A DNA stretch of 50,017 nt. Origin: Thermoplasmata archaeon (lineage in GTDB: Archaea; Thermoplasmatota; Thermoplasmata; Thermoplasmatales; GCA-001856825). Positions 28,288-50,017 of the stretch are shown here, one piece after another. Numbering within the stretch: position 1 is the stretch's first letter; every line of letters starts with the position of its first letter. The notes under the pieces were generated by a model, which worked only from the letters and a program-made list of their open reading frames with translations, did no database searches and was not told where the DNA came from. The translations under genes were made by a program, and so were the position numbers. Location: contig JAJYUZ010000006.1 in NCBI GenBank assembly GCA_021792255.1, positions 1-50,017 of the forward strand. Reading direction: 5' to 3'.

Positions 28288-29256
28288 CTAAAGCAACGGG
28301 CGCATACACATTGTTATTGGTTTCATGTCTTGCTGATGGCCGAAAGTAGTTATTGCTATGCGTTTGTTATGCAATACTATCATATACTGACCATCGGTCC
28401 CGTCCACATAATAAGTCCCGTCTTTGCAGACCCATAAATAATAGCCGTAAGAGTACTTTGGGAAAACACGTTTGATGTCGTACATCGTTGGAGTCAGAAC
28501 CTTGGTTGTCCTCATCTCGTCGATCCAGACCTTGGGTACTATCTGCTCATCATTGTATCTTCCATCATTCTGGAACACCAAAGCGAACTTATGAAAATCC
28601 TCGTGAGACAACCTTAAACCAGTTGATGCTGCACAGTATTTTCCGTAGTTTTTCCATTGGAAGTCTCTTATATCAAGTGGTTCAAATATTATATCCTTAA
28701 CCCACTGCGAGAGGTTTATCCCTAGCCCTTCTTGAATCAGAACTGAAATTAGGAATGGGCCTGCATTAGCGTAGACAAAGAACTTACCGGGGTCATAAGT
28801 CATGTCAGTGTTCCAGATTAAGTCAAGATACTTTTCAGGAGGGATGTCTTTTATATCTTTACTGAACATTAGTCCCACGTCGTGTCCGATGGTGTGAGTC
28901 AGGAAATGTTTTAATTTTACCTTTTTTAGCTTAGGTATATTGTCACTGTTTGTTAGATTCACTAGGTCTTCAAAAAATGGCCAAACTAATGTATCTAGAG
29001 TAATTTTCTGACCGTCAAAGTAGAGTCCCTTTTCCAAAGCGGTTCCTAACGCTAGCCCGATTATAGGCTTGCTTGCAGAGCGAAGATCGTTGATAGTCTT
29101 GTTTCCGTTGAAATAGTGTTCTAATGTTTCTCCTTCGGATGAAGTCACTATTATGCTGTCCATGGACAGATTGTTTCCATTCTTATCCTTGGTTTCTATG
29201 AAGTTTCTTATCACTTCTTCGAAAACTTCCTTGAAGTTACCCACCTTTTCAGACAT
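28288..29256 (-). CDS. Serine hydrolase, beta-lactamase/AmpC-like family
   Basis: SxxK (RSASK), FLTHTIG, PGKFFVYAN (YxN), YGYYLW, GTDGQY; no obvious signal peptide. Confidence 0.88.
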   Translation of the reverse strand: MSEKVGNFKEVFEEVIRNFIETKDKNGNNLSMDSIIVTSSEGETLEHYFNGNKTINDLRSASKPIIGLALGTALEKGLYFDGQKITLDTLVWPFFEDLVNLTNSDNIPKLKKVKLKHFLTHTIGHDVGLMFSKDIKDIPPEKYLDLIWNTDMTYDPGKFFVYANAGPFLISVLIQEGLGINLSQWVKDIIFEPLDIRDFQWKNYGKYCAASTGLRLSHEDFHKFALVFQNDGRYNDEQIVPKVWIDEMRTTKVLTPTMYDIKRVFPKYSYGYYLWVCKDGTYYVDGTDGQYMIVLHNKRIAITTFGHQQDMKPITMCMRPLL

Positions 29257-31565: not shown

Positions 31566-31567
31566 AG

Positions 31568-32788: not shown

Positions 32789-32994
32789 ATTTCAACCGTA
32801 TGTAGAGATGCTTTTTTTATTTTAATTTTTATATCCTTATTTTCATTTGTGTCGCATCAGCCATATTCCTTTTTTTACAATCGAAAATTTGTAGTGGTTA
32901 GTTTTTCATTCCAGAAGCTACTGTGACCGATTCCTTTCTGATCAAAACATCTTCACTTATTACGTTTTGTAAAACCTTCATGTTTGCCTTAAAC

Positions 32995-33282
32995 TCTAAC
33001 TCCGCTCTTTTGCATAATAGGTATCCCTAGCTCATCAATGATGTCCCGTGATTTCTTAGGGATTTCGGATATTTTCCACACCTCCCCTATATTCAGCCTG
33101 CTTATCCTCTCGAGATGCTCTATCACATCCCTTGGGGAATAGTGCTTGAGCAGATCTCTCTTCCTCAGGAGGTCGTAGATGCAGTAGTGGAGCATCAGTG
33201 CTACGAAGTTCACGAACATCCACCCCTGCAACTGGTAGTCGTCCCTCACATAAGTGCGATCGGCATGAATTGTGCCCTTCAA
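32995..33282 (-). pseudogene. IS1634-family transposase C-terminal remnant with terminus
   Basis: 'DRTYVRDDYQLQGWMFVNFVALMLHY...'; end motif TCTAACTCCGCTCTTTTGCA matches the 8203 end at 15/20 positions. Confidence 0.7.
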
Positions 33283-33397
33283 GGTATCTCTCCTTTCTCT
33301 GATCTTTCAGACTAACTATTGTGGCAAAGTATCCAACTCCACCTGCAACCAATCCACCTATGATAGTGAAGATTACAGATACAATTAAGCTCATTAA
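33283..33397 (-). pseudogene. N-terminal TM fragment of a gene truncated by the IS remnant
   Basis: [39 protein letters not shown] runs directly into transposase DNA. Confidence 0.5.
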
Positions 33398-36300: not shown

Positions 36301-36501
36301 TATTGCTTCACTTGGAAACCCAAGATTTATCAGTTGAAGTCTTTCTTTGAGTCTTCCGATCAGTAGTGGTTCAGAGTATTCCCTCTCTGGTCCCTTTCCA
36401 CCTGGGGATATGTCAGGCCCGAACTTGACGGAATAACCTATTTCGGAAAGAATGTTTAGGAAAAGTTCTTCAACATCAGATTCAGTCATCCGGTTAGACA
36501 T
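33394..36501 (-). CDS. hsdR: Type I restriction enzyme R subunit
   Basis: [49 protein letters not shown] and QAIARVNR motifs. Confidence 0.96.
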
Positions 36502-37836
36502 TTATCCCTCCAAAGGTGCTCTGATTTTACCAGTTAACAATTTTGGTAAAATACTATCCCTTATATTTGACAATGTTGCTTGTTCTTTAGCTAACAATGT
36601 CTGTCGATCAATCAATCTAGATACCATCCAATTGAAATTATCCAATAACTTTAAAGGCGGTTGTATGCACACGCTTTCTTTTATGATTTCCTGACTTATA
36701 TTCTGCTGAGCAGCCCCTGTAGCAATATTGTTAAGTTCATCTCTTTTGAAAAATAACGTGTAAAATAAATATGGATATCCTATTTCGTCTTTGGCAACTA
36801 AACCAGAACAAGCTTGATTTGAAGCCCCATCCACTTTAAGTAAGCCCAATCTACCTACTGTAGGGGATGCATATAACGCAATGAGAATGGTGTTAATTTT
36901 CCACAACTTGCAAGAGGAGTTCATTAGACCTTCTCTCGTTATTTTTTCTGCTGAATCAGTGAGTGGGCGATCGTTTAGTTCACCTGTCTTGAACCAGTTG
37001 ATTTCACCATTCCAATACTTCTTTTCCATCCTTTTAGGGGTACCACCATTTTCTATTGATATACAGAGATCTTTTATTCTCTTAACTTCCCAACTCATCG
37101 GTATCTCTCCCAGTTCGGAATCAACCATCTCCCCTCCGCTTGATTTGTACGGCTTCCCCTCTTCATTTGGGAATTCAAAGTCAATAAACCAATTCCTGAA
37201 TATGGCCTGTGCAATGGCTTCAAGGGTCTTGTTCATCTTCTGGTTGAGTTCAATCTTGGAATCGAGATCGGAGAGGATTTTGGCTATGGCTTTTTGCTCG
37301 TTCAAAGGAGGAACTGGTATCAACTCATTTTTAGACCAGCTTTCGATATCTAGTGCCCACACTACCGATCCAGTACTATATAATACAGCTTTTTTCTGAT
37401 TGAAAATTAGAAAGTAATATAGAAAGTCCTTATTTGTATCATCTTCTATTTTGATTTTTGTTATATGATGAGAGAAAACAGCCCTGTCAACATTATAGCT
37501 ATTCGGAAATTCTACTATAGCTGGTGATCCTAGTAAAGAACCGTCTTTACTTTGTTCTGTGTTAGCAATAACAATTTCTCCTTGTTTAACAAAATTTTTC
37601 TCTTTAAGTCTATCGCTGATTATGTAACAAAATTCCCTCTTAAAGCTCCCACCTTCTTTTATGCTGTTAAGTGTAACAAACAAATATTTTCCACTTTCTA
37701 TGTTTTTTTCAGATCCCTTATAAGAAAACCCCCTAACAAAGCTCGCAACATCGCTTATCTTCTTGTATTTCCAATTTTTTTTAGTTTTTTGTATACATTT
37801 ATCAGGAATAATAGGATCGTTATATTCCAAACCCAA
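36502..37836 (-). CDS. hsdS: Type I R-M specificity subunit
   Basis: Two TRDs separated by the conserved '[23 protein letters not shown]'; ends with '[11 protein letters not shown]'. Confidence 0.95.
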
Positions 37837-39352
37837 TCTGCTCCAGATTCTTCTTTATCTCTTCGTCCAGTATATTGCTCTCTTCCATCTGCTGCTTCAG
37901 TTCTGATATAAGTTTCTGCATCTTTTCTTCGAATCTTTCATCATCCTCTTCCTCTTCTTCTGTGCCTACATATCTTCCAGGAGTGAGATAATAGTTATTC
38001 TTTCTTATTTCTTCAGTATCGGAGGATTTACATAAGCCAGGAATATCTTCATACTGGCCTCCTTCTCCCCTCCACGCGTGGTATGTTGATGATATCTTGT
38101 TTATATCCTCATCTGTAAGTATCCTGTGCCTCCTGTCTATCATGGTACCCATTTTCCTTGCGTCGATGAAGAGTGTTTTTCCCGTTCTATCCCTGAATTT
38201 GTTGTTCTTCTTATCCTTCGTGACGAACCACAGGCATGCCGGTATCATCGTGTTGAAAAATAGCTGAGTTGGTAAAGCAACGATACAATCCACCAAGTCC
38301 GCTTCAGTGATGTTCTTTCTTATCTCCCCTTCGTTTGATGTGTTAGAACTCATTGACCCGTTAGCGAGCACAAATCCAGCAATACCTGTTGGCGATAGAT
38401 GATGAATGAAATGCTGGATCCACGCAAAGTTTGCATTTCCGGTTGGCGGTAATCCGTACTTCCACCTGACGTCTTCCCTCAACAAATCCCCCTTCCAGTC
38501 AGAATCGTTGAATGGTGGATTTGCAAGGATGAAATCAGCCTTAAGATCTTTGTGATGGTTATTCAGGAAGCTGTCTCCCCACTTCACTTCATCGGAATCT
38601 ATATTCCTTATCGCAAGATTCATCTTGCAGAGCTTCCAGGTCGTCTGGTTGGATTCCTCCCCGAATATGTGGATATCGTCCAGTCTTCCCTGATGTGCTC
38701 TAATGAACTTCTCGCTCTGAACGAACATCCCACCTGAACCGCAGCAGGGATCAAACACTCTTCCCTTATAGGGTTCTATCATTTCCACGAGCAGTTGCAC
38801 GATTGATTTGGGTGTATAGAACTGCCCACCCTTCTTTCCCTCAGCATCAGCAAACTGGCCTATGAAGTATTCGTATACCCTGCCAAGAATGTCCCTTCCC
38901 TTTGCCTCTTCTGTCCCGAGAGTAATACCGCCTATCAAATCTATAAGTTCGCCCAGTCTTTGTTTATCAAGTGATGGCCTCGAATAATTTGTTGGCAACA
39001 CTCCCTTCAGAGATGGGTTGTCCCTTTCAATGACTTCCATAGCATCGTCTATCGTCCTTCCAATTGTTGGCTGCTTTGCATTCTTCTGCAAATATTCCCA
39101 TCTTGCCTCAGGTGGAACCCAGAAAACATTTCTTGAAATGTACTCATCCCTATCTTCTGGGTCTGAGAGATGCTCTTTGTCATTCTCCAGTTCACTATGA
39201 ACTTCACCAAAGGAATCTGATATGTATTTCAGGAATATCAGGCCAAGAACAACGTGCTTGTATTCGGCAGCATCCATGTTGCTTCTCAGTTTGTCTGCGG
39301 CCTTCCATAACTCCTTCTCTATACTGAGTTCGCTGGTTCCGCTATTTTCCAT
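37820..39352 (-). CDS. hsdM: Type I R-M methyltransferase subunit
   Basis: [24 protein letters not shown] and ANPPFN motifs; likely start MENSG at 39352. Confidence 0.96.
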
Positions 39353-39612
39353 CAAGTAAATATGGTCTAACGTTAGAAGTATTTTTCGGGTCAGCACCTT
39401 TGTGAAACGTACCCATCTTCCAAAAGTTTTAGGAGGGGCCTTTGAGGGGCAGGCATAACGTTGATTTGGGACTTAAATAAATAGACCACCTGATAGTTAG
39501 AAAGTCACTCAAAGACCTTAGGGGGGGAAAATGAGGGACAGGCATGAGGTCAATCTTCAGAGGAATAAATAATTCTTTCGGGATTAAGCGAGGCTAAAAG
39601 GACAATCTTGGA

Positions 39613-39927
39613 TCAGTCCAGTATCCTTATCAGTTCGTCCAATTTCTTGGAGAACCTCTTGCCCTTGGCAGTCAACGATACCATATTCCTGGGTGGATAC
39701 TTCCTGCTGTCCATCCTGGTCTTGACCAGGTTCAGCTCCTTCGCCTTCTCTATGCTGGAATACAGCTGGTGAACAGGGATATCCGTCTCCTCCAATATCT
39801 CCGTGAGGGCTTTCTCTTTCTTGTCCGAAAGGTATACTAGCAGTCTCAGGAATCCTGACTGCTTCTCCAGGACCTTCAGGGGATCCATCACTTGGTAATG
39901 GGTAAGAAGTGCATAATGATTTCCCAT
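39613..39927 (-). CDS. Small winged-HTH regulator (MarR/HxlR-like)
   Basis: 'LTEILEETDIPVHQLYSSIEKAKELNLV...SLTAKG'. Confidence 0.75.
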   Translation of the reverse strand: MGNHYALLTHYQVMDPLKVLEKQSGFLRLLVYLSDKKEKALTEILEETDIPVHQLYSSIEKAKELNLVKTRMDSRKYPPRNMVSLTAKGKRFSKKLDELIRILD

Positions 39928-39981
39928 TCAGCAATCAAGAATAGTTAAATGCAAGGAAATGATTGCTTGTTGGACAATCAT

Positions 39982-40737
39982 ATGAAGTCTCTCTTCCCCT
40001 ACTGTGGAGGCAAGTTCAACCAGCTGCGGGATATACTGTAGGTAATGGGGGAGCACAGGAGTTCCTTCGACTTAGTGGTGGATGTCTTCGGTGGTTCAGC
40101 CAAGGTCCTGCTTAACATACCGGACGAGTGGAAGAAGCTGAAGGTCTACAACGACCTTGACAGGGATCTTTATGTCACCTTCAAGGTGCTGCAGAATAAG
40201 AGGAAGAGCCTCGAGCTATCAAGGAGGCTGAGGGTAGCCTTCCAGGATCATGACGCATTCTTCCTGATGAGGAATCGCAATTTCAGGTCAGACGTGGATA
40301 CGGCTTTCAAGGTGTTCTACCTGCAGACCTATTCATTCATGGGTGGCGGGGCCACATTCGGCCGGTACTTCAAGGGGCACAAGAAGAAGGGGTTTCACCT
40401 GGAGGACTTCGTATATGTGAAGGACTGGATTGTGGAGAATATGGATTTCCGTCAGCTGATGGCTAAGTACAACAGGCCAAGAGTGTATTTCTACTTGGAC
40501 CCGCCCTTCCTCTCCTCGGGAAAGAAGTACAAGCACAGCTTCAAGCTTCAGAACCTGATCGACCTGAAGAAGGCAATGGATGAGCACCAGGGAAGCTTCT
40601 TGCTCAACTTGTCATTCTACGATGAAGGAATGGAGGATATTTTTGGGGAGCCTAACAAGACGATAGGTTATGCAAACCCGCTCAACGAGAACGGAAGGAA
40701 GAAGTGGGAGTGCGGGTACTGGTGGAAGCTAAGTTAG
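39982..40737 (+). pseudogene. Dam/D12-class DNA adenine methyltransferase with in-frame TAG at codon 20
   Basis: MKSLFPYCGGKF...DIL-TAG(40039-40041)-VMGE...VDVFGGS...YND...YLDPPF. Confidence 0.75.
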
Positions 40738-41388
40738 ATTTTTGAGCAAATCTTCAACTGGAGTTAAAATTTGATCATCTTTAACCGGATCTGATAAACA
40801 GCTTGGCCAGAGATTAGTTAAACAGAAATATTTCTTACCGTACTGTTCCGATTCTTGGAATTTGTCGAACTCCCTATCCCAGTTCTTTTTTGTTAGAACC
40901 AGAAGGAACATTTTTGCATTGGGGCTAACACTCCTTAAACTATTTTCTCTTTTCCTGAAATTCTTTTCCCACGTGTATCGGTCATATCCAAGCTGGGTCT
41001 TACATTCAATTGCAGAGACGATATTTTTATCTTTATCCTTTACAATAATGTCTGGTACCAAATCTTTCCCATTCTTGATTTTTATTTTTTCCTGGCCTGC
41101 AACTTCATATCTCCCGTGCATTGCCTCCATATACGCTTTTGTATAATACAGAACGGTCTTTTCAAAGAAGTAGGCTGCCGGCTGTTTAACATTATAATGC
41201 AGAAATTCTTTCTCCTTATCCTCTGCCTTATAGAATTCTCTCATTCTTGTCAATACTGCTTTTGTGATCTCATTATTCCTGTACCCTGAATTTATCGCCT
41301 CTACTACCTTATTATAATGAGAATTTAGGCCCTCAGGGCTATATCTTAACCGTTCGCAGTATGCCTCTTCCAACTCGAGTAGCCTCAT
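40729..41388 (-). CDS. PD-(D/E)XK restriction-endonuclease-like protein
   Basis: FFEK...VPDIIVK...AIECKT motif; convergent with and overlapping the methylase gene. Confidence 0.7.
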   Translation of the reverse strand: MRLLELEEAYCERLRYSPEGLNSHYNKVVEAINSGYRNNEITKAVLTRMREFYKAEDKEKEFLHYNVKQPAAYFFEKTVLYYTKAYMEAMHGRYEVAGQEKIKIKNGKDLVPDIIVKDKDKNIVSAIECKTQLGYDRYTWEKNFRKRENSLRSVSPNAKMFLLVLTKKNWDREFDKFQESEQYGKKYFCLTNLWPSCLSDPVKDDQILTPVEDLLKNLT

Positions 41389-41646
41389 TATTTCATCCTA
41401 AATCAAATTTTAAGCCTCTACTTAAGAATTTATGATTAACTGTCCTCGGTAAACAAGTGATTCCCCTGACCTGAAGGAGTCGCAGAACCTCCAGAATGAT
41501 TCATACCTCCAGAATTTATCAGTACGTAATACCCAGACAATTGACATTTTCCTGAAACCTGATGTGGTTACAGAACATTATAGGCATATCACGAAGGGGA
41601 TATATGAAGACGGAATCAGGTGGGGGTGCGGGTATTGGTGGAGATT

Positions 41647-42444
41647 TTAGCTCCAGTAGTTGTAAATCTCATCAAATTTTCTAAAGACTCCCATAATGAA
41701 TTCCGAAGCAGATTGGTACTGTTCGAGGGCCTGAGTTTTATGTTTGTCAAAGAGATCGCCAATTTTCTTTATCAATTCGTCTTGGTCTTTATAGGTTCCT
41801 TTTTGAATATCTGCTATCTGCTGAACAAGCGCGAGTCCCTCATAGTTACCGTGGCCAAGAGTGTCTCTCCTCGAGACGAAAAGACGATGACTACCGTCAA
41901 TCCTCTGATCTATAGGACTAATGTCATATCCAATTTTCTTTACCGCATCAATAGAAGGATCGAGAGATTCGATTTCATAAAAGGACCAGGTTCCATTCCC
42001 TTTGTCGAGAAATTCACCAAATCTATTCTTCCAGAAACCAAAGTATTTCTTCCCCTCAACTGTCTGTACGTCGTATCGAGCATACTTTCTAATTTCATTG
42101 GCCGTTATGCAGATTTCGTCATGTAACCCATTCAAATCCATCAAGAAGTGGATAATTTTTTCTACTGTCACCGAAGACAAAAGTAGAGAAGCGTTGAACT
42201 GTGCAATTATATACGAAGTTGATGCCTGCCTCATGATTTCTACCACTGTGTAAGGCGAGTCGTTAAGTATGTTATCTTTGTTTATGTCGTTTGTGAATTT
42301 CCAGTGTCTTAAGGTCCAAGGCCTAAAAATAGCGTCCAATTCTTTTATTCTTTCCTCCACTTCCGGTTTCCATAATAGAGATTGCTTATCGTCTGTTCTG
42401 AAAAAATCATCAAGACTTATGAAGCTACCATTACTTTCGAACAT
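41647..42444 (-). CDS. HEPN-domain protein (putative RNase toxin)
   Basis: Helix 'FNASLLLSSVTVEKII' and Rx4H motif RDTLGH (41851-41868) near the C-terminal helices. Confidence 0.6.
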   Translation of the reverse strand: MFESNGSFISLDDFFRTDDKQSLLWKPEVEERIKELDAIFRPWTLRHWKFTNDINKDNILNDSPYTVVEIMRQASTSYIIAQFNASLLLSSVTVEKIIHFLMDLNGLHDEICITANEIRKYARYDVQTVEGKKYFGFWKNRFGEFLDKGNGTWSFYEIESLDPSIDAVKKIGYDISPIDQRIDGSHRLFVSRRDTLGHGNYEGLALVQQIADIQKGTYKDQDELIKKIGDLFDKHKTQALEQYQSASEFIMGVFRKFDEIYNYWS

Positions 42445-42835
42445 GTAGAGCCACGGAAGCTAATTTCACTGAGGCATATCAATAATTTCTTGCTTTGCTT
42501 AGAATTTTATTCTCTCATTTTTTTCATTTCTCAAATCAGGCTATAAATTTTAAATATCCGATCCGAAATTTTGGTTTGTGATGTGCGTGAAAAACAACGG
42601 GTTCAACAGAGAATTTGACAAGCTGGTCGAGGGAAGGATGAAGAAACTCAACAGGATAAACCTGAAGGAGGAACTTGATTCCATGGATAACATTTCCGCA
42701 ATATCTGACAGGGACGGAGACGAAGTTTTCGGGGAATGATCTCGGTGAGTTGCAACATCAAAGATCGACAGACTATTCTGGTATGGAAAGACGGTTTGAA
42801 GGAACTTCGCCAAAGGAGGGATGTGGGACACTATT

Positions 42836-43867
42836 CTAGGATCGCCCAATATTGAACAGGTTGTGCCATAAGCCCGTGCAGAATATTGCGCTGTCAATCC
42901 TGTCATCCCTCCTCTGCGCCACATTCTGTCCCAGCATCTTCTTGTCTGCAGCAAATCCTGATTCAGAATTGCTCCTCTGATGATACTGCTCCAGATAGGG
43001 TACAGTATTCAAAAGGAAATCCTTTATCATGGATTTCCATTCTACGGAACCGTTTAGCGTCGAGTTCTTCTTGGGTATCAAGAACATCTTCGTCCCTTTG
43101 AGCGCATCCACATACGATGGAGAGGAGTAGTACCTGCCCAGCCTCAGAGAGCTCAGAGTCATTTCAATTGACTTGAGCATTTCCAGTGCCCTGTCGTACG
43201 CATCCCTCTCGGACTTCATCGAAGAACCGAATGCCACATACATCCTCGTCTTCAGATCCATCATGAAGAATGAGTATGCAAAGAGCCTCTTTCTACCAGA
43301 TCGCCCCTTCTTGTTTGATCCGTTGCTGTCCTCCTTGGCCTTGTCCTTCAATCTCTGCGCATAGGATTCGTAGTTCTTCTTTATTGTCAGGGAATAGCCA
43401 GTTCCGTCTCCTGTTGCATCGGATGAGTCTATGCCTTTATTCTTCAGTATGAGGATGTGCAGGTTGCGTATCGCCAGTATAACTTCCTGGTCTGAGTACA
43501 GTCTCTCAACACTCTTGTAGCTAACATCAATGCCGGAGAGCATTGAGAATATCACAAGCATGTTGCTGAACATCCTATTGGATTCCCCGACAAGCTGCTT
43601 TATCAGGAGCAGCTTCACCCTATTCTCTAGCGTGAGATCGTATGGATGCCCCGGACCGTGATGTATGGTTATAGTAGAAACTGCTTCCTTCACAAGAGGA
43701 TCGAGTTCCTTCATGGCCGTCTTTATCCTGTGGGAGAATTGTTGCTCATAGGTCCTCCAGTCCCTCTCCTTCATTGGATGCTCAAGCTTGTATTTCTTTG
43801 CTATGATCCTATCGATTTCCTCGAGCTTGAGCTTTATGTCCTCGTCGAAGACCTTGGGCATTGGCAA
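42836..43867 (-). CDS. DDE transposase (ISNCY/ISA1214-like)
   Basis: GDGTGYS, LRL(G)RYYS and RSNSESGF motifs. Confidence 0.85.
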   Translation of the reverse strand: MPMPKVFDEDIKLKLEEIDRIIAKKYKLEHPMKERDWRTYEQQFSHRIKTAMKELDPLVKEAVSTITIHHGPGHPYDLTLENRVKLLLIKQLVGESNRMFSNMLVIFSMLSGIDVSYKSVERLYSDQEVILAIRNLHILILKNKGIDSSDATGDGTGYSLTIKKNYESYAQRLKDKAKEDSNGSNKKGRSGRKRLFAYSFFMMDLKTRMYVAFGSSMKSERDAYDRALEMLKSIEMTLSSLRLGRYYSSPSYVDALKGTKMFLIPKKNSTLNGSVEWKSMIKDFLLNTVPYLEQYHQRSNSESGFAADKKMLGQNVAQRRDDRIDSAIFCTGLWHNLFNIGRS

Positions 43868-43935
43868 TATATATCATGGAGTAATATAAGCATGTCTATA
43901 GACATGCTTATTAACATCCATATTATTAACAGCAG

Positions 43936-44124
43936 TTGAGCAGGAAGATATTCGTGTTGAACAACTCAATGACCCTGAAGGACGATGAGATAGAGGGCAT
44001 CCTGGAGAGAACTGTTACGAAGCAGGGCACATCAGCAAAGGCAGATGTGCCAAGGAGATATCTAGGGAGGAGGGTCTACGTCATAATCACGAAATCAAAG
44101 GGAGAAGTGAGGGACGAGGAATAG
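43936..44124 (+). CDS. DUF2080-like transposase-associated small protein
   Basis: 'ERTVTKQGTSAKADVPRRYLGRRVYVII' inside the IS termini. Confidence 0.75.
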   Translation: MSRKIFVLNNSMTLKDDEIEGILERTVTKQGTSAKADVPRRYLGRRVYVIITKSKGEVRDEE

Positions 44125-44390
44125 TGTCCCACACTGCCAAAGGAGTCTAGATGAAGTTCTGAATGCGATTGGGACGGGGGGAAGGGAGAATGAATCGATT
44201 TGACAAGGAATATATAACAGGAAGGACCAGTGGGACATCGACTAGAAGATCATGATGAAGGGATACCAGACTACGAAGACCAGGGATCAGTTCTTTGAGT
44301 TCCTGAAGGAGAATATGAGCTTCGTGATAACTAAAGTTTCGAGCGAGAGGGCAGACGAGCTTATGGAGGAGCTAGAGCTGATTTAATCAA

Positions 44391-45614
44391 CTAACTCTTG
44401 GTTTTACTTGTTATGTACCAACTCTTGTATAAGAGAAGAAGTAAAGAAACTACTAGGTAAACAAGTATGATGGAAGGAATAAGCATACCTGTTATAGAAA
44501 TATTGGTGTCAGGAATTATAATGCTATACTTGGCATAATTTATGAGGTGGTACATCCCAAGTACAAGTGGAACTAGAACTATAAGATCCCAGAGTATCCA
44601 GGTTCCGAAAATTCCAAGATATCTTTGGAGAAATTTTAGTGGATCAAATACTCTATTTAGAGTCAATGAAAGGTCCCCACTTGAATCCATTATATTCTTT
44701 AGTTTCAGATTTGCTTCTGAGTTTATTAGCGTCTGAATAGGGGCATCATCTTTTATTTCCGCTTTAATGAATTCTGCAGCGTACGGACTGTTTAGTATGA
44801 TTGAATTAGAGTAATCTGTTTTAACAAGGAGAGATGCTATGTAGAAATATTTCACAAATACTGACTCGCTGGGATTAAAAGTGGGGATATCATCCTCTAG
44901 AAAGGAATAAACGTCAGTGGATATACGCTTGAGAAACATCAAATGTTCTCGCAAAAGACCAATATAACCCAAACTTCGCAAATCATCAGATTTGTTCACT
45001 ATTTTATCTAAGATTTTCTGATAGCTGAGGTATTGTGCTAAACCAGCAGCCATTTTTACATAGCCAGCATTGTCTTCCGTTTCCGATAATATCTGAGTTC
45101 CTGAATTATTTTCGTCCAGCAAATCTATTAACCTATTAAGAAAGGCGTCTGATTTCATTTCTTTCAGTTGATTAAGTAAATTGTCGTTAAACACTCTTTC
45201 CGCTTGAGGTTTTTCTGAATAGACGACCTCAATCAGCGAAACTAGAAATATGTCTCCAATCAGTGTCCTAACACGACTATCATCTATCTTTCCTTGATAG
45301 GTAGATGTTAAGTACTCTTCCAAACTATTTCTTAGGGAATCGCTCATTTTTAAAACGGAGTTATTTTGAAATTGAGTTTTCACGTTTTCCAAGATTAGTT
45401 TTACAAGTTCGTTCCTTGTGCCCCCTACCCTTGATAGAATATTCCCGAGTTGTGTTCTAGAAATGCCTATTGCTTCCCCGAAGAGGACGGCATAAAGGGA
45501 CCCCTCAGTTGGAGGCTGATTGCCAGTACTTGGATGAAGAAAAAATCTATTAAGAAGGGTTTCAGCAAATTGTATTACGAAATGCTTGTAAGTTAGTTCT
45601 CCATTGTTAGTCAT
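44391..45614 (-). CDS. Argonaute-associated putative membrane effector (helical domain + 2 C-terminal TM)
   Basis: 41 nt downstream of and co-oriented with the pAgo gene; two long hydrophobic helices at the C-terminus. Confidence 0.65.
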   Translation of the reverse strand: MTNNGELTYKHFVIQFAETLLNRFFLHPSTGNQPPTEGSLYAVLFGEAIGISRTQLGNILSRVGGTRNELVKLILENVKTQFQNNSVLKMSDSLRNSLEEYLTSTYQGKIDDSRVRTLIGDIFLVSLIEVVYSEKPQAERVFNDNLLNQLKEMKSDAFLNRLIDLLDENNSGTQILSETEDNAGYVKMAAGLAQYLSYQKILDKIVNKSDDLRSLGYIGLLREHLMFLKRISTDVYSFLEDDIPTFNPSESVFVKYFYIASLLVKTDYSNSIILNSPYAAEFIKAEIKDDAPIQTLINSEANLKLKNIMDSSGDLSLTLNRVFDPLKFLQRYLGIFGTWILWDLIVLVPLVLGMYHLINYAKYSIIIPDTNISITGMLIPSIILVYLVVSLLLLLYKSWYITSKTKS

Positions 45615-45655
45615 TGTTCTCCCATGTAATTATTTTTCATGAAAAAACGTCTCCA

Positions 45656-47383
45656 CTAGATTAGAAGTCTAATAGGAAGCGAATCAGCTAGGAGAGATAG
45701 CTGTGAAATAATCTCTGCCTTCTTTTTGAACGCAATGATAGGTTCAGGTATCCTAAGGGACGCAAGAGAATATATCCTGTAAAGTCGCCTTTTGGCAAGT
45801 CTGATTAATGATGTAACATCGTCTTCATCTATCTCAGAGTCCAGCGGATACAGCAGTTCAGAATACATCGTTCCAAAATCAAAAGGTCCCTTCAGTTTTT
45901 GAGAAGGTTGATAAAACAGATGTCTTCCGTCTATTGTCTTATAAGAGATTCTAACGTCGTCTGCATCATTTGATTCTTCAAGTCTCTCAATATTACTAAA
46001 CGTCTTCCCCTCGAGTGATGAAAGATAAAACACTTTCGATATGTTAACATCTTTTTGCCTCAAATTCCAAAGAAGAAGATTCAGATTCTCTTGCTTCATC
46101 CTTTTGGTAATGATAATACGGAAACTCAACTTGTGCAGACCCATTGAGTCGGAAACGAATTCTGCAACTTTCTGAGAGTTATTTATGATTTCGCTCTTTT
46201 CGAATTCAGCTTCATCCTGCGATTCGTCCTCAGGATCGTCAATTAAAAACACGTTTTCCTTTGACTCTCCTGCTCTATTTCCGAAGGTAACAACCACCCC
46301 CAAAAGATGCGAGTACTTGCCAGATGCTGCGAGTTTCCTATCTATCCACTCGTTGACCCTAGAGAAGTAGATGTAACCATCATCGGATATTGTTTCCTGA
46401 TTCGGATCTAATTCCAGTGGTTCTAGCCCCAGCTTCTGCAATACTTCAAGTTTGACCATATTGAGTGTTGCTATGTTAAGAGATGATACACTGATGTTTT
46501 GTGTTGCTATTCTCTTCTTAAGAGTTTCGACTTTCCAATTGAAATAATTCTTGTTCTGTGGTTCACCCTCGGAACTATTTTGGAAATTCGAGAACAGGCA
46601 GACCTTTGGGTAGGCATCTTCTGAGCAGGGTATCCCAATTGAGTGGTTGAATCTATCAGCTTGAATTTCAAATCCTAGTTTTGAGAAATCCGATGAAATC
46701 TGATTGACTAATTCATCTGAGAACCCTTTTTCAAATTCAAGTTTGTAACCCTTTCCCGTTAACTTTTTTTGAAAGTGATCTGTCACATAATTGAGAGCTT
46801 CTTTTCTTTTTCCTGAATTTAGCATATCTGATAATTTGCCTTCCCTGTTTGAACAGATTAATATCTTAGTATCTGAAATATCAACTTGGTTTTCCAATAT
46901 TAGACGGCTAAAGAATAAAGTCTGATTACTTATCTTCAGACTAAAGGTTTCATCGTTTAGAAGCTCAAGTACTTCAGAAGACTCCTTCATGATCTTCTCG
47001 GTCAACTTGATTGCATTCCTATCCTCAGGCTTTATGTATGGCCTTAAAATCAATAATATCCTATAATTTGCAACACGATATTTACCTGAAGAATACTCCT
47101 CTTTTTCATTTAGAAAATCTGTTATCAGATTCCAGCCTTCAACACTATTTCCTGATGAAAAGTTTGGGTACTTTATCCAACAGTGTGTCTTTCCCTTTTC
47201 GTTAGTCTCCTCAACACCCTCCAAGCCCTTAGATTTAGAATATTCCATAAATGATTTCTTAATCAACAGTATGTTCTCTGGTATCTTCCAGTTTGATTGC
47301 GCATTAACTATTCGGTTAGAGTAGTATGATAAAGTCAGTCCTGCCCTTAAATCATCTAAATCTGTAATTGGTTCGTTCTTCAA
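45656..47383 (-). CDS. Divergent, catalytically inactive prokaryotic Argonaute (MID-PIWI with ~250-aa N-terminal region)
   Basis: MID 5'-phosphate motif Y-K-Q-K (YFNWK...IATQNI...LQKLGLEP); PIWI strands lack Asp (GYIYFS, RIIITKR); C-terminal 'SLRIPEPII' and hydrophobic end LPIRLLI. Confidence 0.75.
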   Translation of the reverse strand: MKNEPITDLDDLRAGLTLSYYSNRIVNAQSNWKIPENILLIKKSFMEYSKSKGLEGVEETNEKGKTHCWIKYPNFSSGNSVEGWNLITDFLNEKEEYSSGKYRVANYRILLILRPYIKPEDRNAIKLTEKIMKESSEVLELLNDETFSLKISNQTLFFSRLILENQVDISDTKILICSNREGKLSDMLNSGKRKEALNYVTDHFQKKLTGKGYKLEFEKGFSDELVNQISSDFSKLGFEIQADRFNHSIGIPCSEDAYPKVCLFSNFQNSSEGEPQNKNYFNWKVETLKKRIATQNISVSSLNIATLNMVKLEVLQKLGLEPLELDPNQETISDDGYIYFSRVNEWIDRKLAASGKYSHLLGVVVTFGNRAGESKENVFLIDDPEDESQDEAEFEKSEIINNSQKVAEFVSDSMGLHKLSFRIIITKRMKQENLNLLLWNLRQKDVNISKVFYLSSLEGKTFSNIERLEESNDADDVRISYKTIDGRHLFYQPSQKLKGPFDFGTMYSELLYPLDSEIDEDDVTSLIRLAKRRLYRIYSLASLRIPEPIIAFKKKAEIISQLSLLADSLPIRLLI

Positions 47384-47414
47384 CTCTCCAGCACCCCCTC
47401 AGCCTCCATCAGCA

Positions 47415-47555
47415 TCATTTCCCCAGATTCTCCCTCATCCTATCGTACTGATCTTTCGATATTTCACCCTTTGCATACCTTTCCCTGAGTATCTCTTGAG
47501 AATTGAAATGGCGAAGGCATCTGTTATCTATGGAAATTTCTATGTTAATAGACAT
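47415..47555 (-). CDS. 46-aa SHOCT-domain peptide (not in ORF track; may be a remnant)
   Basis: EILRERYAKGEISKDQYDRMRENL is a canonical SHOCT pattern. Confidence 0.55.
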   Translation of the reverse strand: MSINIEISIDNRCLRHFNSQEILRERYAKGEISKDQYDRMRENLGK

Positions 47556-47561
47556 ATCTGC

Positions 47562-48359
47562 TCACTTGAACAATTTATCTTTTACCAATTTCTGACCCAG
47601 ATAATGGTTTACGTAGTACATGTCCGGGTCAAATCGCTGCGGTCTAGTTCTGATCTCGAATCCTGGATCATTAGGATTGTTACTGTCAAACAGAACTAAC
47701 CCAAGACCGTAAATCTGACACAGGGATTCGATCCTAAATTCGTCCTCTTCCGGGGAGTTTTTAGGGATAACAAGATATGTCTTGTTACTAAATAATCTAT
47801 AGGCGCAGGCTTGGCCAAACGCTGTGATCAAGTTGTTAGGATCCAGTTTTATCTCCGCTGACGTAACCTCTATTTGAAATTGTACTATATCACCTACCGT
47901 CGGCTTCTTTATACCTAGAACATCAGGGGTTCCCCACTTTTCCTTGAAAATATTTCCCCCCAGCGGAATTGCTTTTGTGCAATCTTCTGTTTCTTCTACT
48001 AACCATCTGGCGAAGCTTTCATAGAAATCATCCTCTGAAACCTTTTGGGGCTGTTGGGATTGCACGGTGTTATCAATCTGTTGGCCTTCAGTCCTCGCCA
48101 TTTCCTCTGTCGTTTCATCTGTATCTGCCGCCCTGAACAGCCCCCTGTCGACTTTAATTATCTTTTTTGAGTACGCAGGATCATTGACAATACCGGCTAA
48201 AGTTGTCCATACAGTACTCCTTTTAATTCCTGGGTCATTTCCGAACGAAGAAATGACCTTATGACCAAGGTCTGCATAACGCATAGTCTTAGCCTCGTCC
48301 TCGAGAATCTCGTATATTCTTTCCTTTATCCTCTGAATCTTTCCTCCTCTGTTTGCCAT
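47562..48359 (-). CDS. N-terminal wHTH (HARE-HTH/Mrr_N-like) plus PD-(D/E)XK nuclease
   Basis: HTH ending 'KVDRGLF'; SEDDFY...WGTPDVLG...SAEIK...GQACAY; RBS GGAGGT before ATG 48359. Confidence 0.75.
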   Translation of the reverse strand: MANRGGKIQRIKERIYEILEDEAKTMRYADLGHKVISSFGNDPGIKRSTVWTTLAGIVNDPAYSKKIIKVDRGLFRAADTDETTEEMARTEGQQIDNTVQSQQPQKVSEDDFYESFARWLVEETEDCTKAIPLGGNIFKEKWGTPDVLGIKKPTVGDIVQFQIEVTSAEIKLDPNNLITAFGQACAYRLFSNKTYLVIPKNSPEEDEFRIESLCQIYGLGLVLFDSNNPNDPGFEIRTRPQRFDPDMYYVNHYLGQKLVKDKLFK

Positions 48360-48524
48360 TTTACCTCCCCTCCAATATCTCCTCAATCTCCTTCAGGTGC
48401 TTTGCAACTTTCTTGCCCTTTTTCCAGTAGCATGCCCACTAGATATAGCATAATCTGTGCTTACTTAACACTTGATGTCTATTTTTCTATTCGTTCTTTA
48501 ACCTGAACTCCCGTCTTTTAGGCA

Positions 48525-49835
48525 CTATAGCCTATCGGGTAGTTTGACTACGGCCTTTTCTCCGGGAAGCGGACTTACAAAGTCCCACCCTCTCTCTATA
48601 AAGGATTCAACCTCATTTAGAGCGATGACTTTTTGTTTGTGACCATTGTTGATTATCTCTGTTTTCCTCGTATTGGTCATCTTCCTCAACTCATCCCGAA
48701 ATTCCTCAATATCTAGACCGAAAAGCCTTTCCTTTTCTTCATCACTCAGTTTCTTTCCAAACTGAGTTTCGAACATCATCAGGGCAAACTCTCTGAGCTT
48801 TCTCGTCAAATCTTCTTCCGGAATCCCGGTCCTTTCCGTTTCGAAGAACACTGCGGACTTGAGATACGCCGCTCTCATTCCCTCAACGATTTCAGGAAGC
48901 AACCTCTTGTTTGTTGAATATGTGGACTCAATGTCCCCTTTGTGACCCATCATGAACTGTCTCCATGGATGAGAGATAATTCCCTTGGACTCTGCTATAT
49001 CGAGTGCCGTGGCAAAATAAGCCCTTAAAACATAAGGTCTCATCATCAAGTCAGCGGATCGAATTGCGTTTCTAATCTCCCTCGATACCAAGAGGGTCCT
49101 AAGAAAGTTCCTTCTTGTACTTGCATTGGATGCATCAGGAATCAACAGAGGTGATTCCCTGTTCAGAATCTCGCCTGACTTTCTCCTTTCTTCTAAATGA
49201 TCCTTAATGTATTTACATCCCTCCTGACCCAGGAATGTGAAATACCTGAATCTAGCCTTGCTGAGACCGTTCCTCACGTTCACCTTAGCTGGAATGTGTG
49301 TGAATGAAACATTCTCAATGTTAAGGTCCTCAATGTCTCCCAAGAGGAGACCGTCAGTTCCTTCATAGTTCCCGAGACTTTCAGGTCTCAGGCCACTGAA
49401 AGCTAATAGCGCTATAGAGACCCTCCCCCTAGGTGTTGCCATCCTGAGTATTTTCGACAATTCGTCTTTCGTCGGAACTCTTTCGTTCAACGTGTTCTCA
49501 TTTACGTTTTCATTGGGTATATTGATCTTTATTTTATAGTCAATATCGTTGAAAACCAGCCAAGACCTAATGACTTGCCTGAATTTCCCTACGTAAGCAC
49601 CTTTCTTGCCATCTGAAATCATCTTTATGACAAAATCCTGGAAGTTGTTCTTTAAAGTGCCATCCCTAGCTTGCTCCAGGATATCATCGGGCGTGATCCC
49701 GTTCAGGTGGCAGTACAGGCCTAGATTTCGCCTCCATATATCTGCGGATATAGGAGACCTCATTCTAATATTAAGATACCATCTTTTTACCTGTTCGCTA
49801 TTTTCGAGGTTCCTGTATTTTCTTGTAAAGCTCAC
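48525..49835 (-). CDS. int: Tyrosine recombinase/integrase
   Basis: SGLRPESL, K in LSKAR, YVLRAYF (YxxR variant of HxxR), MGHKG, catalytic Y in STYS; 55 nt from attR. Confidence 0.92.
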   Translation of the reverse strand: MSFTRKYRNLENSEQVKRWYLNIRMRSPISADIWRRNLGLYCHLNGITPDDILEQARDGTLKNNFQDFVIKMISDGKKGAYVGKFRQVIRSWLVFNDIDYKIKINIPNENVNENTLNERVPTKDELSKILRMATPRGRVSIALLAFSGLRPESLGNYEGTDGLLLGDIEDLNIENVSFTHIPAKVNVRNGLSKARFRYFTFLGQEGCKYIKDHLEERRKSGEILNRESPLLIPDASNASTRRNFLRTLLVSREIRNAIRSADLMMRPYVLRAYFATALDIAESKGIISHPWRQFMMGHKGDIESTYSTNKRLLPEIVEGMRAAYLKSAVFFETERTGIPEEDLTRKLREFALMMFETQFGKKLSDEEKERLFGLDIEEFRDELRKMTNTRKTEIINNGHKQKVIALNEVESFIERGWDFVSPLPGEKAVVKLPDRL

Positions 49836-49890
49836 GAATGTTTATAACAGGCTTAGATATATACTATTCGATTACGTTCGTAATCGGGTA

Positions 49891-49903
49891 CCCTCCCCCG
49901 CAT
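49891..49903 (+). repeat. attR core CCCTCCCCCGCAT
   Basis: Direct repeat of the tRNA-Leu 3' end. Confidence 0.85.
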
Positions 49904-50017
49904 AGCAAAATAAGTTTAATGCGCTGTCTCCAATCAGCTCCCTTCATCCAACCGATATATAAAGAAATATTAAAAAATGACAATTATATATTATTAACGC
50001 CCTCTCCGTAGTTAAGA

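What the first reader, a model, noticed from the sequence alone, without database searches (positions are those of the whole stretch)
44391..47383. Highly divergent inactive Argonaute coupled to a two-TM membrane protein: candidate new pAgo abortive-infection system
Seen: the 575-aa ORF has a MID-like Y-K-Q-K guide 5'-phosphate pocket followed by 'KLGLEPLEL', PIWI-ordered strands with no catalytic Asp, the terminal 'LRIPEPI' motif and a hydrophobic C-terminus. The next gene (407 aa) is helical with two C-terminal TM helices. Established: inactive pAgos act as sensors that trigger effectors, including membrane proteins (Sulfolobus SiAgo-Aga1-Aga2; long-B pAgos with membrane partners). Inference: this is a two-gene variant with no separate APAZ/Aga1 gene. 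Its intermediate length suggests a reduced N-lobe fused to MID-PIWI, so it may be a distinct clade that standard PIWI profiles miss.
Basis: partly seen in the sequence, partly recalled or inferred. Interest (0 to 1): 0.88.

Follow-up and report, generated by a model that had tools for sequence, protein, structure and literature searches.

The report
Hidden inactive Argonaute with membrane partner
An archaeal gene that standard domain searches miss is predicted to fold as a catalytically dead Argonaute and always sits beside a two-helix membrane protein, which resembles known Argonaute suicide-defence systems in a very divergent, shortened form.

Summary
The 575-aa ORF (45656..47383, -) matches nothing in Pfam, PADLOC, NCBIfam or PHROGs. 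Its AlphaFold2 model (pLDDT 86.4, pTM 0.88) is nevertheless an Argonaute. Residues ~160-575 superpose on short pAgos (SPARDA Z 19.3, SiAgo Z 18.5). Residues 13-575 align along long pAgos, so a ~150-aa N-lobe remnant is fused and there is no PAZ.

The MID 5'-phosphate pocket is conserved across 44 relatives: Y280 39/44, K284 40/44, Q295 44/44, K317 44/44. The catalytic tetrad is gone (R342 and T426 at the first and third Asp positions).

The 407-aa neighbour is all-helical with two C-terminal hydrophobic helices. A partner of this build abuts the pAgo gene in every lineage with context: downstream in the window's clade (homologous, 24-26% identity) and upstream in two distant archaeal MAGs. No other neighbour is conserved. 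The pair lies in a defence island beside an integrase.

Most likely it is a guide-loaded sensor that activates a membrane effector (abortive infection), by analogy with SiAgo-Aga1-Aga2, the AfAgo/Af1317 operon and BPAM. That system logic, including single-chain PAZ-less pAgos with helical-TM effectors, is already in print. I therefore rate it a new, very divergent variant of a known kind. Function is untested.

The parts
45656..47383 (-). Gene for the 575-aa catalytically inactive, PAZ-less Argonaute (whole ORF including stop)
   Evidence: ORF. AF2 model pLDDT 86.4 / pTM 0.88. Foldseek gives 223 PDB matches at E<=1e-3 with Ago chains at the top. In the exhaustive VIA search all 28 chains with Z>=8 are Ago/PIWI-type entries.
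46904..47383 (-). Residues 1-160: reduced N-lobe (N/L1/L2- or APAZ/Aga1-equivalent region), no PAZ
   Evidence: Short pAgos align only from residue ~160 on (368 residues aligned). Long pAgos align from residue 13 with 440-473 residues aligned. This domain was not folded on its own.
46394..46903 (-). Residues ~161-330: MID domain with the 5'-phosphate pocket Y280-K284-Q295-K317
   Evidence: The family profile aligns this stretch to the MID of SiAgo (8znj_A) and PIWIL1. Response-regulator/Rossmann-like folds match residues 211-320.
45659..46393 (-). Residues ~331-575: PIWI (RNase H-like) domain without a catalytic tetrad (R342, T426, F552/K553); family signature D522, R533, Y535, R536, P546-E547-P548; C-terminal RLLI
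   Evidence: hhalign to a canonical long pAgo places R342 at the 'giDi' Asp and T426 at the 'RDG' Asp. EndoV/NurA RNase H-like folds match this part.
45615..45655 (-). 41-nt spacer between the two genes: GGGAG 5-9 nt before the partner's ATG; a T-run inside the inverted repeat TTTTTCATGAAAAA
   Evidence: Read directly from the sequence. A regulatory role is inference.
44391..45614 (-). Gene for the 407-aa partner: helical soluble domain (1-~325) plus two C-terminal transmembrane helices; the proposed membrane effector
   Evidence: ORF. No family match. Homologous partner directly downstream of the pAgo gene in 5 of 5 complete metagenome loci (24-26% identity, E 1e-22 to 1e-24). Adjacent locus tags in an NCBI MAG.
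44421..44621 (-). Residues ~332-398 of the partner: two hydrophobic helices (about 332-358 and 372-398)
   Evidence: Kyte-Doolittle 19-residue windows >=1.6, peaks 2.10 and 2.84. Long helices at 325-360 and 378-406 in the low-confidence model.

Best explanation
The two genes form a two-component Argonaute defence module. The 575-aa protein is a nuclease-dead, PAZ-less Argonaute made of a minimal N-lobe, MID and PIWI. It most likely loads a 5'-phosphorylated small nucleic-acid guide in its conserved Y-K-Q-K pocket and base-pairs it with invader nucleic acid. The resulting change in the PIWI lobe would then be passed to the adjacent 407-aa protein, whose helical cytoplasmic domain is anchored by two transmembrane helices. 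Activation of that protein would collapse the membrane potential and kill or arrest the infected cell (abortive infection). Shown here: the fold, the conserved pocket, the loss of catalytic residues, the conserved gene pairing and the defence-island setting. Inferred by analogy with SiAgo-Aga1-Aga2, AfAgo/Af1317 and BPAM: guide loading, target sensing, binding to the partner, membrane damage and defence.
For: Fold: AF2 model pLDDT 86.4, pTM 0.88. Foldseek finds 223 PDB matches at E<=1e-3, best AaAgo 8.2e-13. VIA second look: XauSPARDA Ago Z 19.3 (rmsd 3.6, 368 aligned), SiAgo Z 18.5 (355 aligned), CtAgo Z 19.0 (440 aligned, residues 13-575). In the exhaustive search of 48,161 chains, all 28 with Z>=8 are Ago/PIWI-type entries.

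Sequence: the family profile hits Piwi/Ago MID regions as its top 10 PDB sequences. 4 of 44 members weakly hit Pfam Piwi. 22 of 44 hit a PADLOC pAgo model, best E 5.1e-13.

Pocket and inactivity: column counts; hhalign to a canonical long pAgo.

Pairing: a homologous partner lies directly downstream in 5 of 5 complete loci of a 36%-identical lineage, plus 2 truncated ones. Adjacent locus tags QXU18_14365/14360. In two distant MAG loci (L011, L012) a 369/386-aa protein with two C-terminal hydrophobic helices abuts the pAgo start. No other window neighbour is conserved.

Context: type I R-M, a D12 methylase, an IS5-like transposase and an integrase in the window. MmeI-like R-M, HNH, NurA, PIN and AAA_15/21 near L011/L012. 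Patchy spread: apart from G000, no member of this family among 100 relatives (the two weak extra matches are discussed in the full report), and 1 of 371 genomes in another archaeal phylum.

Precedent: SiAga2 is a soluble domain plus 2xTM toxic effector that depolarises the membrane and binds SiAgo-Aga1 only when guide and target are bound (bioRxiv 10.1101/2021.12.09.471704 and PMC11788926, passages and sections read). Long-B pAgos have a downstream 'alpha-helical domain + TM' effector (PMC10954474, section 26). BPAM is described in PMC10620215 (passages).
Against: There are no functional data of any kind. Homology of the 407-aa protein to SiAga2, Af1317 or bAgaM could not be tested, because none of those sequences was available through the tools. 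Homology between the window-type partner and the L011/L012-type partner is unproven (BLAST E 0.02-0.06, hhalign probability 13.7%, E 0.002), so the pairing across the whole family may be analogous rather than inherited. The partner's model is poor (pLDDT 44.1). Its soluble part is net acidic (K+R 32 against D+E 42), whereas SiAga2 acts through a basic pocket; net charge does not exclude a pocket. The N-lobe is only about 150 aa, against 250 aa for AfAgo-N as stated in PMC10954474, so it may not support guide-target sensing in the same way. A T-run within an inverted repeat between the genes could uncouple their expression.
Confidence: 0.68

Rival explanations
1. The pAgo is tethered to, or recruited by, the membrane protein to intercept incoming DNA at the envelope (uptake, conjugation or viral entry) or to silence it without killing the cell. 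The partner is then an anchor, not a toxin.
For: The evidence for fold, pocket and pairing is the same as above. Nothing computed here shows toxicity. PMC10620215 (passages) reports that EabAgaM alone did not mediate cell death and did not form a stable complex with its pAgo under the conditions tested.
Against: In every characterised inactive-pAgo system read here (SiAgo, BPAN/BPAS/BPAM, SPARTA/SPARSA/SPARDA), the associated protein is a cell-killing effector.
Confidence: 0.12
2. The 407-aa protein is not the effector. It is a structural or regulatory complement of the truncated N-lobe, or an immunity factor, and the real effector lies elsewhere, for example the 274-aa or SHOCT genes upstream.
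For: The 274-aa gene, the 46-aa SHOCT ORF, the pAgo and the partner are co-directional with short gaps. The N-lobe is unusually small.
Against: Neither the 274-aa gene nor the SHOCT ORF is found beside any homolog. Only the TM partner is conserved. The partner is predicted all-helical, whereas PMC11788926 (section 20) describes the shared regions of SiAga1 and APAZ as beta-sheets capped by helices.
Confidence: 0.08
3. The pair is a decaying or non-defence cargo of a mobile element and has no guide-directed activity. The Argonaute fold survives only as a scaffold.
For: The family is rare and patchy. It sits next to a transposase and an integrase. No RNA data exist.
Against: Both ORFs are intact and keep their length in relatives of 36-86% identity. 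The pocket residues and the C-terminal motif are invariant or nearly so across a family with 24% mean column identity, which argues for selection on guide binding.
Confidence: 0.07

Closest known systems
SiAgo-SiAga1-SiAga2 system of Sulfolobus islandicus (bioRxiv 10.1101/2021.12.09.471704; PMC11788926)
   Same: Both are archaeal. Both have an inactive MID-PIWI with a 5'-P pocket (SiAgo H138/K142/Q153/K183) and a Thr at the third catalytic position (SiAgo T291; T426 here). The effector is a soluble domain plus two C-terminal TM helices encoded next to the pAgo. In L011/L012 the TM gene is upstream, as aga2 is. SiAgo matches the model at Z 18.5 and is the best PDB sequence hit of the family profile (E 5.1e-4).
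   Different: There is no separate Aga1 gene. Instead about 150 N-terminal residues are fused to MID-PIWI. Sequence similarity is confined to the MID motif and is no better than to animal PIWI. Homology of the partner to SiAga2 was not tested. The partner is downstream in the window's clade.
AfAgo operon and AfAgo-like long-B pAgos with Af1317-type effectors (PMC10954474)
   Same: [quoted passage not shown] The window pair has this same architecture and gene order. AfAgo matches the model at Z 15.9-17.1.
   Different: The window protein matches no Piwi or pAgo profile. Its N-lobe is about 150 aa, against 250 aa for AfAgo-N. The long-B representative RsAgo scores lower (Z 12.5) than short pAgos. 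Placement in the long-B tree was not tested, and the paper's supplementary lists could not be seen.
BPAM: long-B pAgo plus trans-membrane effector bAgaM (PMC10620215)
   Same: It is a two-gene module of an inactive pAgo and an effector with a C-terminal TM region, proposed to act by abortive infection.
   Different: BPAM pAgos are full-length bacterial long-B proteins. Here the protein is 575 aa, archaeal and PAZ-less. Homology of the partner to bAgaM (og_100) was not testable.
Short pAgo systems (SPARTA, SPARSA, SPARDA, SPARHA)
   Same: These are the best structural matches for residues ~160-575 (Z 17-19.3, 360-377 residues aligned). They also have an inactive PIWI, and the N-L1-L2-like module can be fused in single-chain forms.
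   Different: No APAZ-effector fusion (TIR, SIR2 or nuclease) is present. The effector is a separate membrane protein. No sequence-level match was found.
pPIWI-RE family
   Same: It is a distant PIWI-superfamily member. A pPIWI_RE cluster is among the nearest by language-model features (score 0.93). The family here also has invariant Arg and Glu in the PIWI C-terminal region (R533, R536, E547); that a conserved R and E define pPIWI-RE is my recollection.
   Different: No member matches the Pfam pPIWI_RE models (0 of 44 at E<=0.1). The proteins are about half the length. No helicase or REase partner is conserved.

Membership tests
Argonaute/PIWI superfamily | MID (Rossmann-like) followed by a PIWI (RNase H-like) fold | tested here: met
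   AF2 model pLDDT 86.4. 223 Foldseek matches at E<=1e-3 with Ago chains at the top. Z 15.9-19.3 to Agos with 340-470 residues aligned.
Argonaute/PIWI superfamily | MID 5'-phosphate pocket (Y/H/R-K-Q-K) and conserved C-terminus | tested here: met
   Y280 39/44, K284 40/44, Q295 44/44, K317 44/44 and last residue I/L/V 44/44. The motif aligns to the SiAgo and PIWIL1 MID. Pocket geometry in the model was not inspected.
Catalytically active (slicer) Argonautes | DEDX tetrad in PIWI | tested here: not met
   First Asp position = R342 (R in 11/44, D in 30/44). Third Asp position = T426 (T 40/44, S 4/44, never D) by hhalign to a canonical long pAgo (probability 58.5%). An alternative HMMER register puts I338 at the first position. 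At the fourth position (recalled location after P-x-P) stand F552/K553.
Pfam Piwi (PF02171) / PADLOC pAgo models | Significant match to the curated profile | tested here: not met
   The window protein has 0 hits at E<=0.1 in Pfam, PADLOC and NCBIfam. 0 of 6 further members of its clade hit PADLOC. In the wider family 4/44 hit Pfam Piwi weakly and 22/44 hit PDLC02436, over the MID motif in the three members examined individually.
Short pAgo systems (SPARTA/SPARSA/SPARDA type) | MID-PIWI-only protein with an APAZ-effector partner or fusion | tested here: not met
   About 150 extra N-terminal residues align with the long-pAgo N-lobe. No TIR, SIR2 or nuclease-APAZ gene is adjacent in the window or in 9 related loci.
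SiAgo-like system | Separate Aga1 (N-L1-L2-like) gene between aga2 and ago | tested here: not met
   The pAgo and the TM gene abut each other: 41 nt apart in the window and 0-48 nt or overlapping in the related loci.
SiAgo-like system | Adjacent effector with a soluble domain plus 2xTM, homologous to SiAga2 | tested here: inconclusive
   The architecture is met. Homology to SiAga2 could not be tested because no SiAga2 sequence was available. The partner profile finds nothing in the PDB.
SiAgo-like or long-B clade (phylogenetic membership) | Branching inside the clade in a MID-PIWI tree | not tested
   No reference set of SiAgo-like, long-B and short pAgos could be fetched. Structural Z-scores do not discriminate: SiAgo 16.3-18.5, AfAgo 15.9-17.1, RsAgo 12.5, SPARDA 19.
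AfAgo-like long-B plus Af1317-type effector | Immediately downstream gene = conserved alpha-helical domain fused to TM | tested here: inconclusive
   Position and build fit. Homology of the helical domain to Af1317 was not testable.
pPIWI-RE | pPIWI_RE_X / MID_pPIWI_RE / RNaseH_pPIWI_RE modules and a helicase + REase operon | tested here: not met
   0 of 44 members match these Pfam models at E<=0.1. No conserved helicase or REase neighbour.

The most novel reading that the evidence does not exclude
The ~50-protein family may be a separate deep branch of prokaryotic Argonautes, outside long-A, long-B, short and SiAgo-like, so far seen only in uncultured archaea and metagenomes. In this branch a minimal ~110-160-aa N-lobe fused to MID-PIWI would suffice for guide-target sensing, and the sensor would directly gate its own family of 2xTM channel-like effectors. 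Current Piwi/pAgo profiles miss the window's clade entirely, so archaeal pAgo counts would be underestimates.
Probability: 0.3. Interest if true: 0.7.

Novelty: new variant of a known kind. Interest (0 to 1): 0.55.

Why it matters
Standard profile-based surveys can miss whole Argonaute lineages. PADLOC, Pfam and NCBIfam found nothing for the window protein, and PADLOC found nothing for six further members of its clade. This lineage offers a very compact single-chain sensor (520-575 aa) coupled to a separate membrane effector. That makes it a simple two-gene system in which to ask how target binding by an inactive Argonaute is passed on to a membrane protein. This question is still open for SiAgo-Aga2, AfAgo-Af1317 and BPAM (PMC11788926 discussion; 10.1101/2025.04.08.647717 discussion). 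It would also add a defence module to Thermoplasmatales-related archaea, a phylum in which canonical Piwi genes were found in only 3 of 301 genomes searched.

Tried and rejected
Complex prediction of the pAgo (alignment A3) with residues 1-325 of the partner (A6) returned 'no answer' (score 0.00, controls not run). It counts neither for nor against binding.

The partner's AF2 model was too poor to search with (pLDDT 44.1). The protein atlas had no usable hit and no model for it. Its profile found nothing in PDB sequences. A last homolog search with a joint partner alignment (A9) returned only the 4 close relatives plus the L012 partner, so the two partner families could not be deepened.

Profile-profile comparison of the two partner families was inconclusive (probability 13.7%, E 0.002).

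I first took PADLOC model PDLC02436 (460 positions) for a SiAgo-type model and hence a sign of SiAgo kinship. I rejected this because it hits canonical long pAgos at E 1e-27 to 1e-56, and its control search was uninformative.

The first genome-contig scan with A1 found no relative. Viral contigs gave none with A5 or A3. Plasmids gave none by tblastn with P0001 or P0063.

No RNA holder was listed for the locus, so expression was not examined and read laying was not used.

The weak relatives' hits are not family members. G008 is a canonical long pAgo. G054 is a 251-aa frame with a stop and was not followed up.

No phylogeny against reference pAgo classes was made, because no reference sequences of short, SiAgo-like or long-B pAgos could be fetched. 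Supplementary files of the papers, which hold lists of pAgos and effectors, were not opened and may already contain members of this family.

No paper naming this family was found in searches. These were full-text keyword searches of the held library only.
Full report
1. What is in the sequence.
Two co-directional ORFs lie on the minus strand: 575 aa (45656..47383, TTG start) and 407 aa (44391..45614). They are separated by 41 nt, with GGGAG just before the second ATG. The TTG start is credible. It aligns with the initiator Met of the homologs and is preceded by GGAGG/GAGGGGG. Neither protein matches anything at E<=0.1 in Pfam or PADLOC, or at E<=0.01 in PHROGs. In NCBIfam the 575-aa protein has no hit. 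The 407-aa protein has only a sub-threshold hit over its hydrophobic tail (PgaD, E 0.0043, 17 bits against a cut-off of 31.45).

2. Relatives.
A word-indexed search found 7 proteins at E<=1e-3, the query included, at 36-100% identity. One is named 'MAG: hypothetical protein QXU18_14365 [Thermoplasmatales archaeon]'. An exhaustive phmmer search over 1.84 billion representatives found 50 proteins at E<=1e-3, 21 at <=1e-10 and 8 at <=1e-30. Most are 510-560 aa at 23-31% identity.

I aligned 44 of them (A2) and left out short fragments. The invariant columns are Q295, K317, D522, R533, Y535, R536 and E547. Nearly invariant are K284, E313, G336, T426, P546 and others. All named members are metagenomic 'hypothetical proteins'.

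3. Is it an Argonaute?
Yes, on three lines of evidence.

(a) Profile against sequences. The A2 profile searched against PDB sequences gave 18 sequences at E<=10. The 10 best are all Piwi/Ago proteins matched over the MID motif (SiAgo 8znj_A E 5.1e-4, PIWIL1 9e-4). A profile of the distant branch alone (A4) gave the same picture (PIWIL1 1.2e-4). 4 of 44 members weakly hit Pfam Piwi (best 7.9e-4). 22 of 44 hit PADLOC pAgo model PDLC02436 (best 5.1e-13), and in the three members examined individually the match covered only the MID region. The window protein and 6 of 6 other tested members of its clade hit nothing.

(b) Structure. AlphaFold2 with A2 gave pLDDT 86.4 and pTM 0.88. Foldseek found 223 PDB matches at E<=1e-3, headed by AaAgo (8.2e-13) and TtAgo. 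In a second look, residues ~160-575 superposed on short pAgos: XauSPARDA Z 19.3, rmsd 3.6, 368 aligned; SiAgo Z 18.5, 355 aligned; SPARTA about 18; AfAgo 16.9-17.1. Residues 13-575 aligned along long pAgos: CtAgo Z 19.0, 440 aligned; TtAgo about 17, 440-455 aligned. A Foldseek-independent search of 48,161 chains gave 28 with Z>=8. All are Argonaute/Piwi proteins, two Mediator kinase-module chains and the DdmD-DdmE complex. That those kinase-module chains are Med13, a PIWI-like protein, is my recollection.

(c) The protein atlas's own weaker model also found Piwi clusters by structure.

4. Domain reading.
Short pAgos cover only ~160-575. Long pAgos align 70-105 more residues starting at residue 13. 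The first ~150 residues therefore occupy the place of the N/L1/L2 (APAZ/Aga1-equivalent) lobe, and there is no room for a PAZ. This domain was not folded alone, so its identity is inferred. It is markedly shorter than AfAgo-N (250 aa; PMC10954474, passages).

5. Pocket and catalytic site.
Y280 (39/44; 2 H, 1 K, 1 R, 1 gap), K284 (40 K, 4 R), Q295 (44/44) and K317 (44/44) form the Y/H/R-K-Q-K pattern. This compares with H138/K142/Q153/K183 in SiAgo (PMC11788926, section 20). The last residue is I, L or V in 44/44.

hhalign of A2 to a canonical long pAgo from a genome of the same genus (L002; PADLOC PDLC02396 E 1e-208) aligned 204 columns at probability 58.5%. It places position 342 on the first catalytic Asp ('giDi') and T426 on the Asp of 'RDG'. 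Position 342 is R in the window protein and in all 11 members of its clade, and D in 30 of 44. Position 426 is T in 40 and S in 4, never D. An alternative HMMER register puts I338 at the first Asp. In either register the window protein lacks it.

After the P-E-P motif, where I recall the fourth residue to sit, stand F552/K553 (D in 2 of 44 at position 553). The whole family is therefore predicted to be inactive as a nuclease. SiAgo likewise carries T at the third position (T291).

6. The partner and the pairing.
The 407-aa protein is predicted all-helical (low-confidence model, pLDDT 44.1). It has two hydrophobic segments at about 332-358 and 372-398. It has 4 relatives, itself included, at 61-100% identity. 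One is QXU18_14360, the locus tag adjacent to the pAgo homolog QXU18_14365.

A metagenome scan returned 7 loci of one lineage whose pAgo is 35-38% identical. In 5 of 5 loci where the downstream gene is complete, it encodes a 415-455-aa protein with C-terminal hydrophobic helices. It is homologous to the window's partner over its full length (24-26% identity, E 1.5e-24 to 6.6e-22). The other two loci hold truncated or broken copies.

In the distant branch, two archaeal MAG loci carry a 369-aa and a 386-aa protein with two C-terminal hydrophobic helices that end exactly where the pAgo gene starts, so the TM gene is upstream there. These are L011 (= P0063) and L012 (= P0026), 29% identical to each other. 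The two upstream proteins are homologous to each other (25% identity, E 6.5e-22). They are only doubtfully related to the window-type partner (BLAST E 0.02-0.06; hhalign probability 13.7%, E 0.002, collinear). No other neighbour of the window pair recurs in any of these loci.

A quick maximum-likelihood tree of the 44 proteins separates the R342 clade (11 rows, the window's clade) on a branch with SH-aLRT support 100. Context is known for that clade and for the largest D342 clade, but not for the D342 clade that is sister to the window's.

7. Setting.
The window is a whole 50,017-bp contig of a 1.59-Mb genome that is 93.55% complete, and the pair occurs once. The contig carries:
- a complete type I R-M (hsdR 33394..36501, hsdS 36502..37836, hsdM 37820..39397);
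- a D12-class methylase (40045..40737);
- a weak HEPN-like ORF;
- an IS5-like transposase with a DUF2080 gene;
- the pair itself;
- a 46-aa SHOCT ORF and a 274-aa orphan gene;
- an integrase (phrog_1, E 1.4e-9) at the contig end.

L011 and L012 are flanked by an MmeI-like R-M, an IS200 transposase and HNH, NurA, PIN and AAA_15/21 genes.

The family is rare. Among 100 relatives only G000 has a strong match. Of the two weak matches, G008 is a canonical long pAgo and G054 is a 251-aa frame with a stop codon that was not followed up. It occurs in 1 of 371 genomes of the phylum of G378. It was not found in viral contigs or plasmids. G000 has no canonical Piwi gene, and 3 of 301 genomes of its phylum do.

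8. Mechanism.
The best-supported reading is a sensor-effector module. The dead Argonaute binds a 5'-phosphorylated guide and recognises invader nucleic acid. It then activates the membrane protein, with loss of membrane potential and abortive infection.

The steps after 'conserved pocket' are inferred from precedent:
- SiAga2 (soluble domain plus 2xTM) is the toxic, depolarising effector. It binds SiAgo-Aga1 only in the guide-target-bound state (10.1101/2021.12.09.471704 sections 5, 6, 8; PMC11788926 sections 20-25).
- Long-B pAgos, split or single-chain and with or without PAZ, carry a downstream 'conserved alpha-helical domain + TM/TIR/HEPN/PD-(D/E)XK' effector typified by Af1317 (PMC10954474 section 26).
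- BPAM causes cell death that depends on the TM region (PMC10620215, passages).
- A 'beta-relay' in PIWI is proposed to transmit duplex binding to effectors (10.1101/2025.04.08.647717, passages).

9. Comparison and novelty.
In how it works, the pair matches the SiAgo, AfAgo/Af1317 and BPAM logic. As to membership, it fails the profile tests for Piwi/pAgo families. It lacks the separate Aga1 of SiAgo systems and the APAZ-effector of short pAgo systems, and it is not a pPIWI-RE (0 of 44 Pfam matches). Its place in the pAgo tree was not determined.

Single-chain PAZ-less pAgos with helical-TM effectors are already described, so the system type is known. The new features are the extreme divergence, the minimal fused N-lobe, the R-for-D replacement that marks the window's clade, and the flipped gene order between clades. 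My keyword searches found no paper naming this family.

10. Verdict.
I rate it a new variant of a known kind, with moderate interest (0.55).

Noticed in passing
window 47415..47555 (-): A 46-aa ORF between the 274-aa gene and the pAgo gene matches the SHOCT domain (PF09851, E 8.7e-8, 32.1 bits, above the cut-off of 27). It starts 6 nt after the upstream stop and ends 31 nt before the pAgo start. It was not detected beside homologs, so a link to the system is doubtful.
   Followed up: partly
window 47562..48386 (-): A 274-aa orphan ORF directly upstream and co-directional has no hit within the limits searched in Pfam, PADLOC, NCBIfam or PHROGs apart from one chance-level Pfam row (E 0.13), and it is absent beside homologs. 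By eye its C-terminal half carries a D...E-x-K-like pattern. That reading was not tested.
   Followed up: partly
window 48525..49835 (-): A 436-aa protein matches phage integrases (phrog_1, E 1.4e-9) although Pfam finds nothing. It lies at the contig end, which suggests that the defence genes ride on an integrated element. No tRNA or att site was found in 30001..50017.
   Followed up: partly
window 33394..44124: This is a defence and mobile-gene cluster: a complete type I R-M (hsdR, hsdS, hsdM), a small winged-helix protein (39613..39927), a D12 methylase (40045..40737) overlapping a possible restriction enzyme (40729..41388, weak BsuBI/PstI hit, E 0.034), a weak HEPN-like ORF (41647..42444, E 0.061), an IS5-like transposase (42836..43867) and DUF2080 (43936..44124).
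   Followed up: partly
window 45615..45655: The spacer between the pAgo and its partner holds a T-run inside the inverted repeat TTTTTCATGAAAAA. It could be an archaeal terminator or attenuator that limits expression of the putative toxin. This was not tested.
   Followed up: no
L002:431-2539 (G008, same genus): A canonical 702-aa long pAgo with 'giDi' and 'RDG' motifs (PADLOC PDLC02396 E 1e-208) occurs in a genome of the same genus. G000 itself has no canonical Piwi gene.
   Followed up: partly
L008 and L009, upstream of the pAgo homolog: In the 36%-identical lineage a winged-helix regulator (HTH_45/PadR/HxlR-like, E about 1e-5 in L009) lies just upstream of the pAgo gene. By eye its C-terminal end resembles the window's 104-aa winged-helix protein at 39613..39927, which lies 4.5 kb from the pair.
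   Followed up: no
window 44391..47383: Near-identical DNA is held by runs of 3 studies labelled mine drainage, sediment and mine tailings metagenomes. The first two may be the source of the assembly.
   Followed up: no
window 29256..32788 (-): Two large adjacent ORFs (769 aa and 406 aa) have no Pfam hit (E<=0.001) or PHROGs hit (E<=0.01), just beyond the type I R-M. They could be further uncharacterised defence genes.
   Followed up: no
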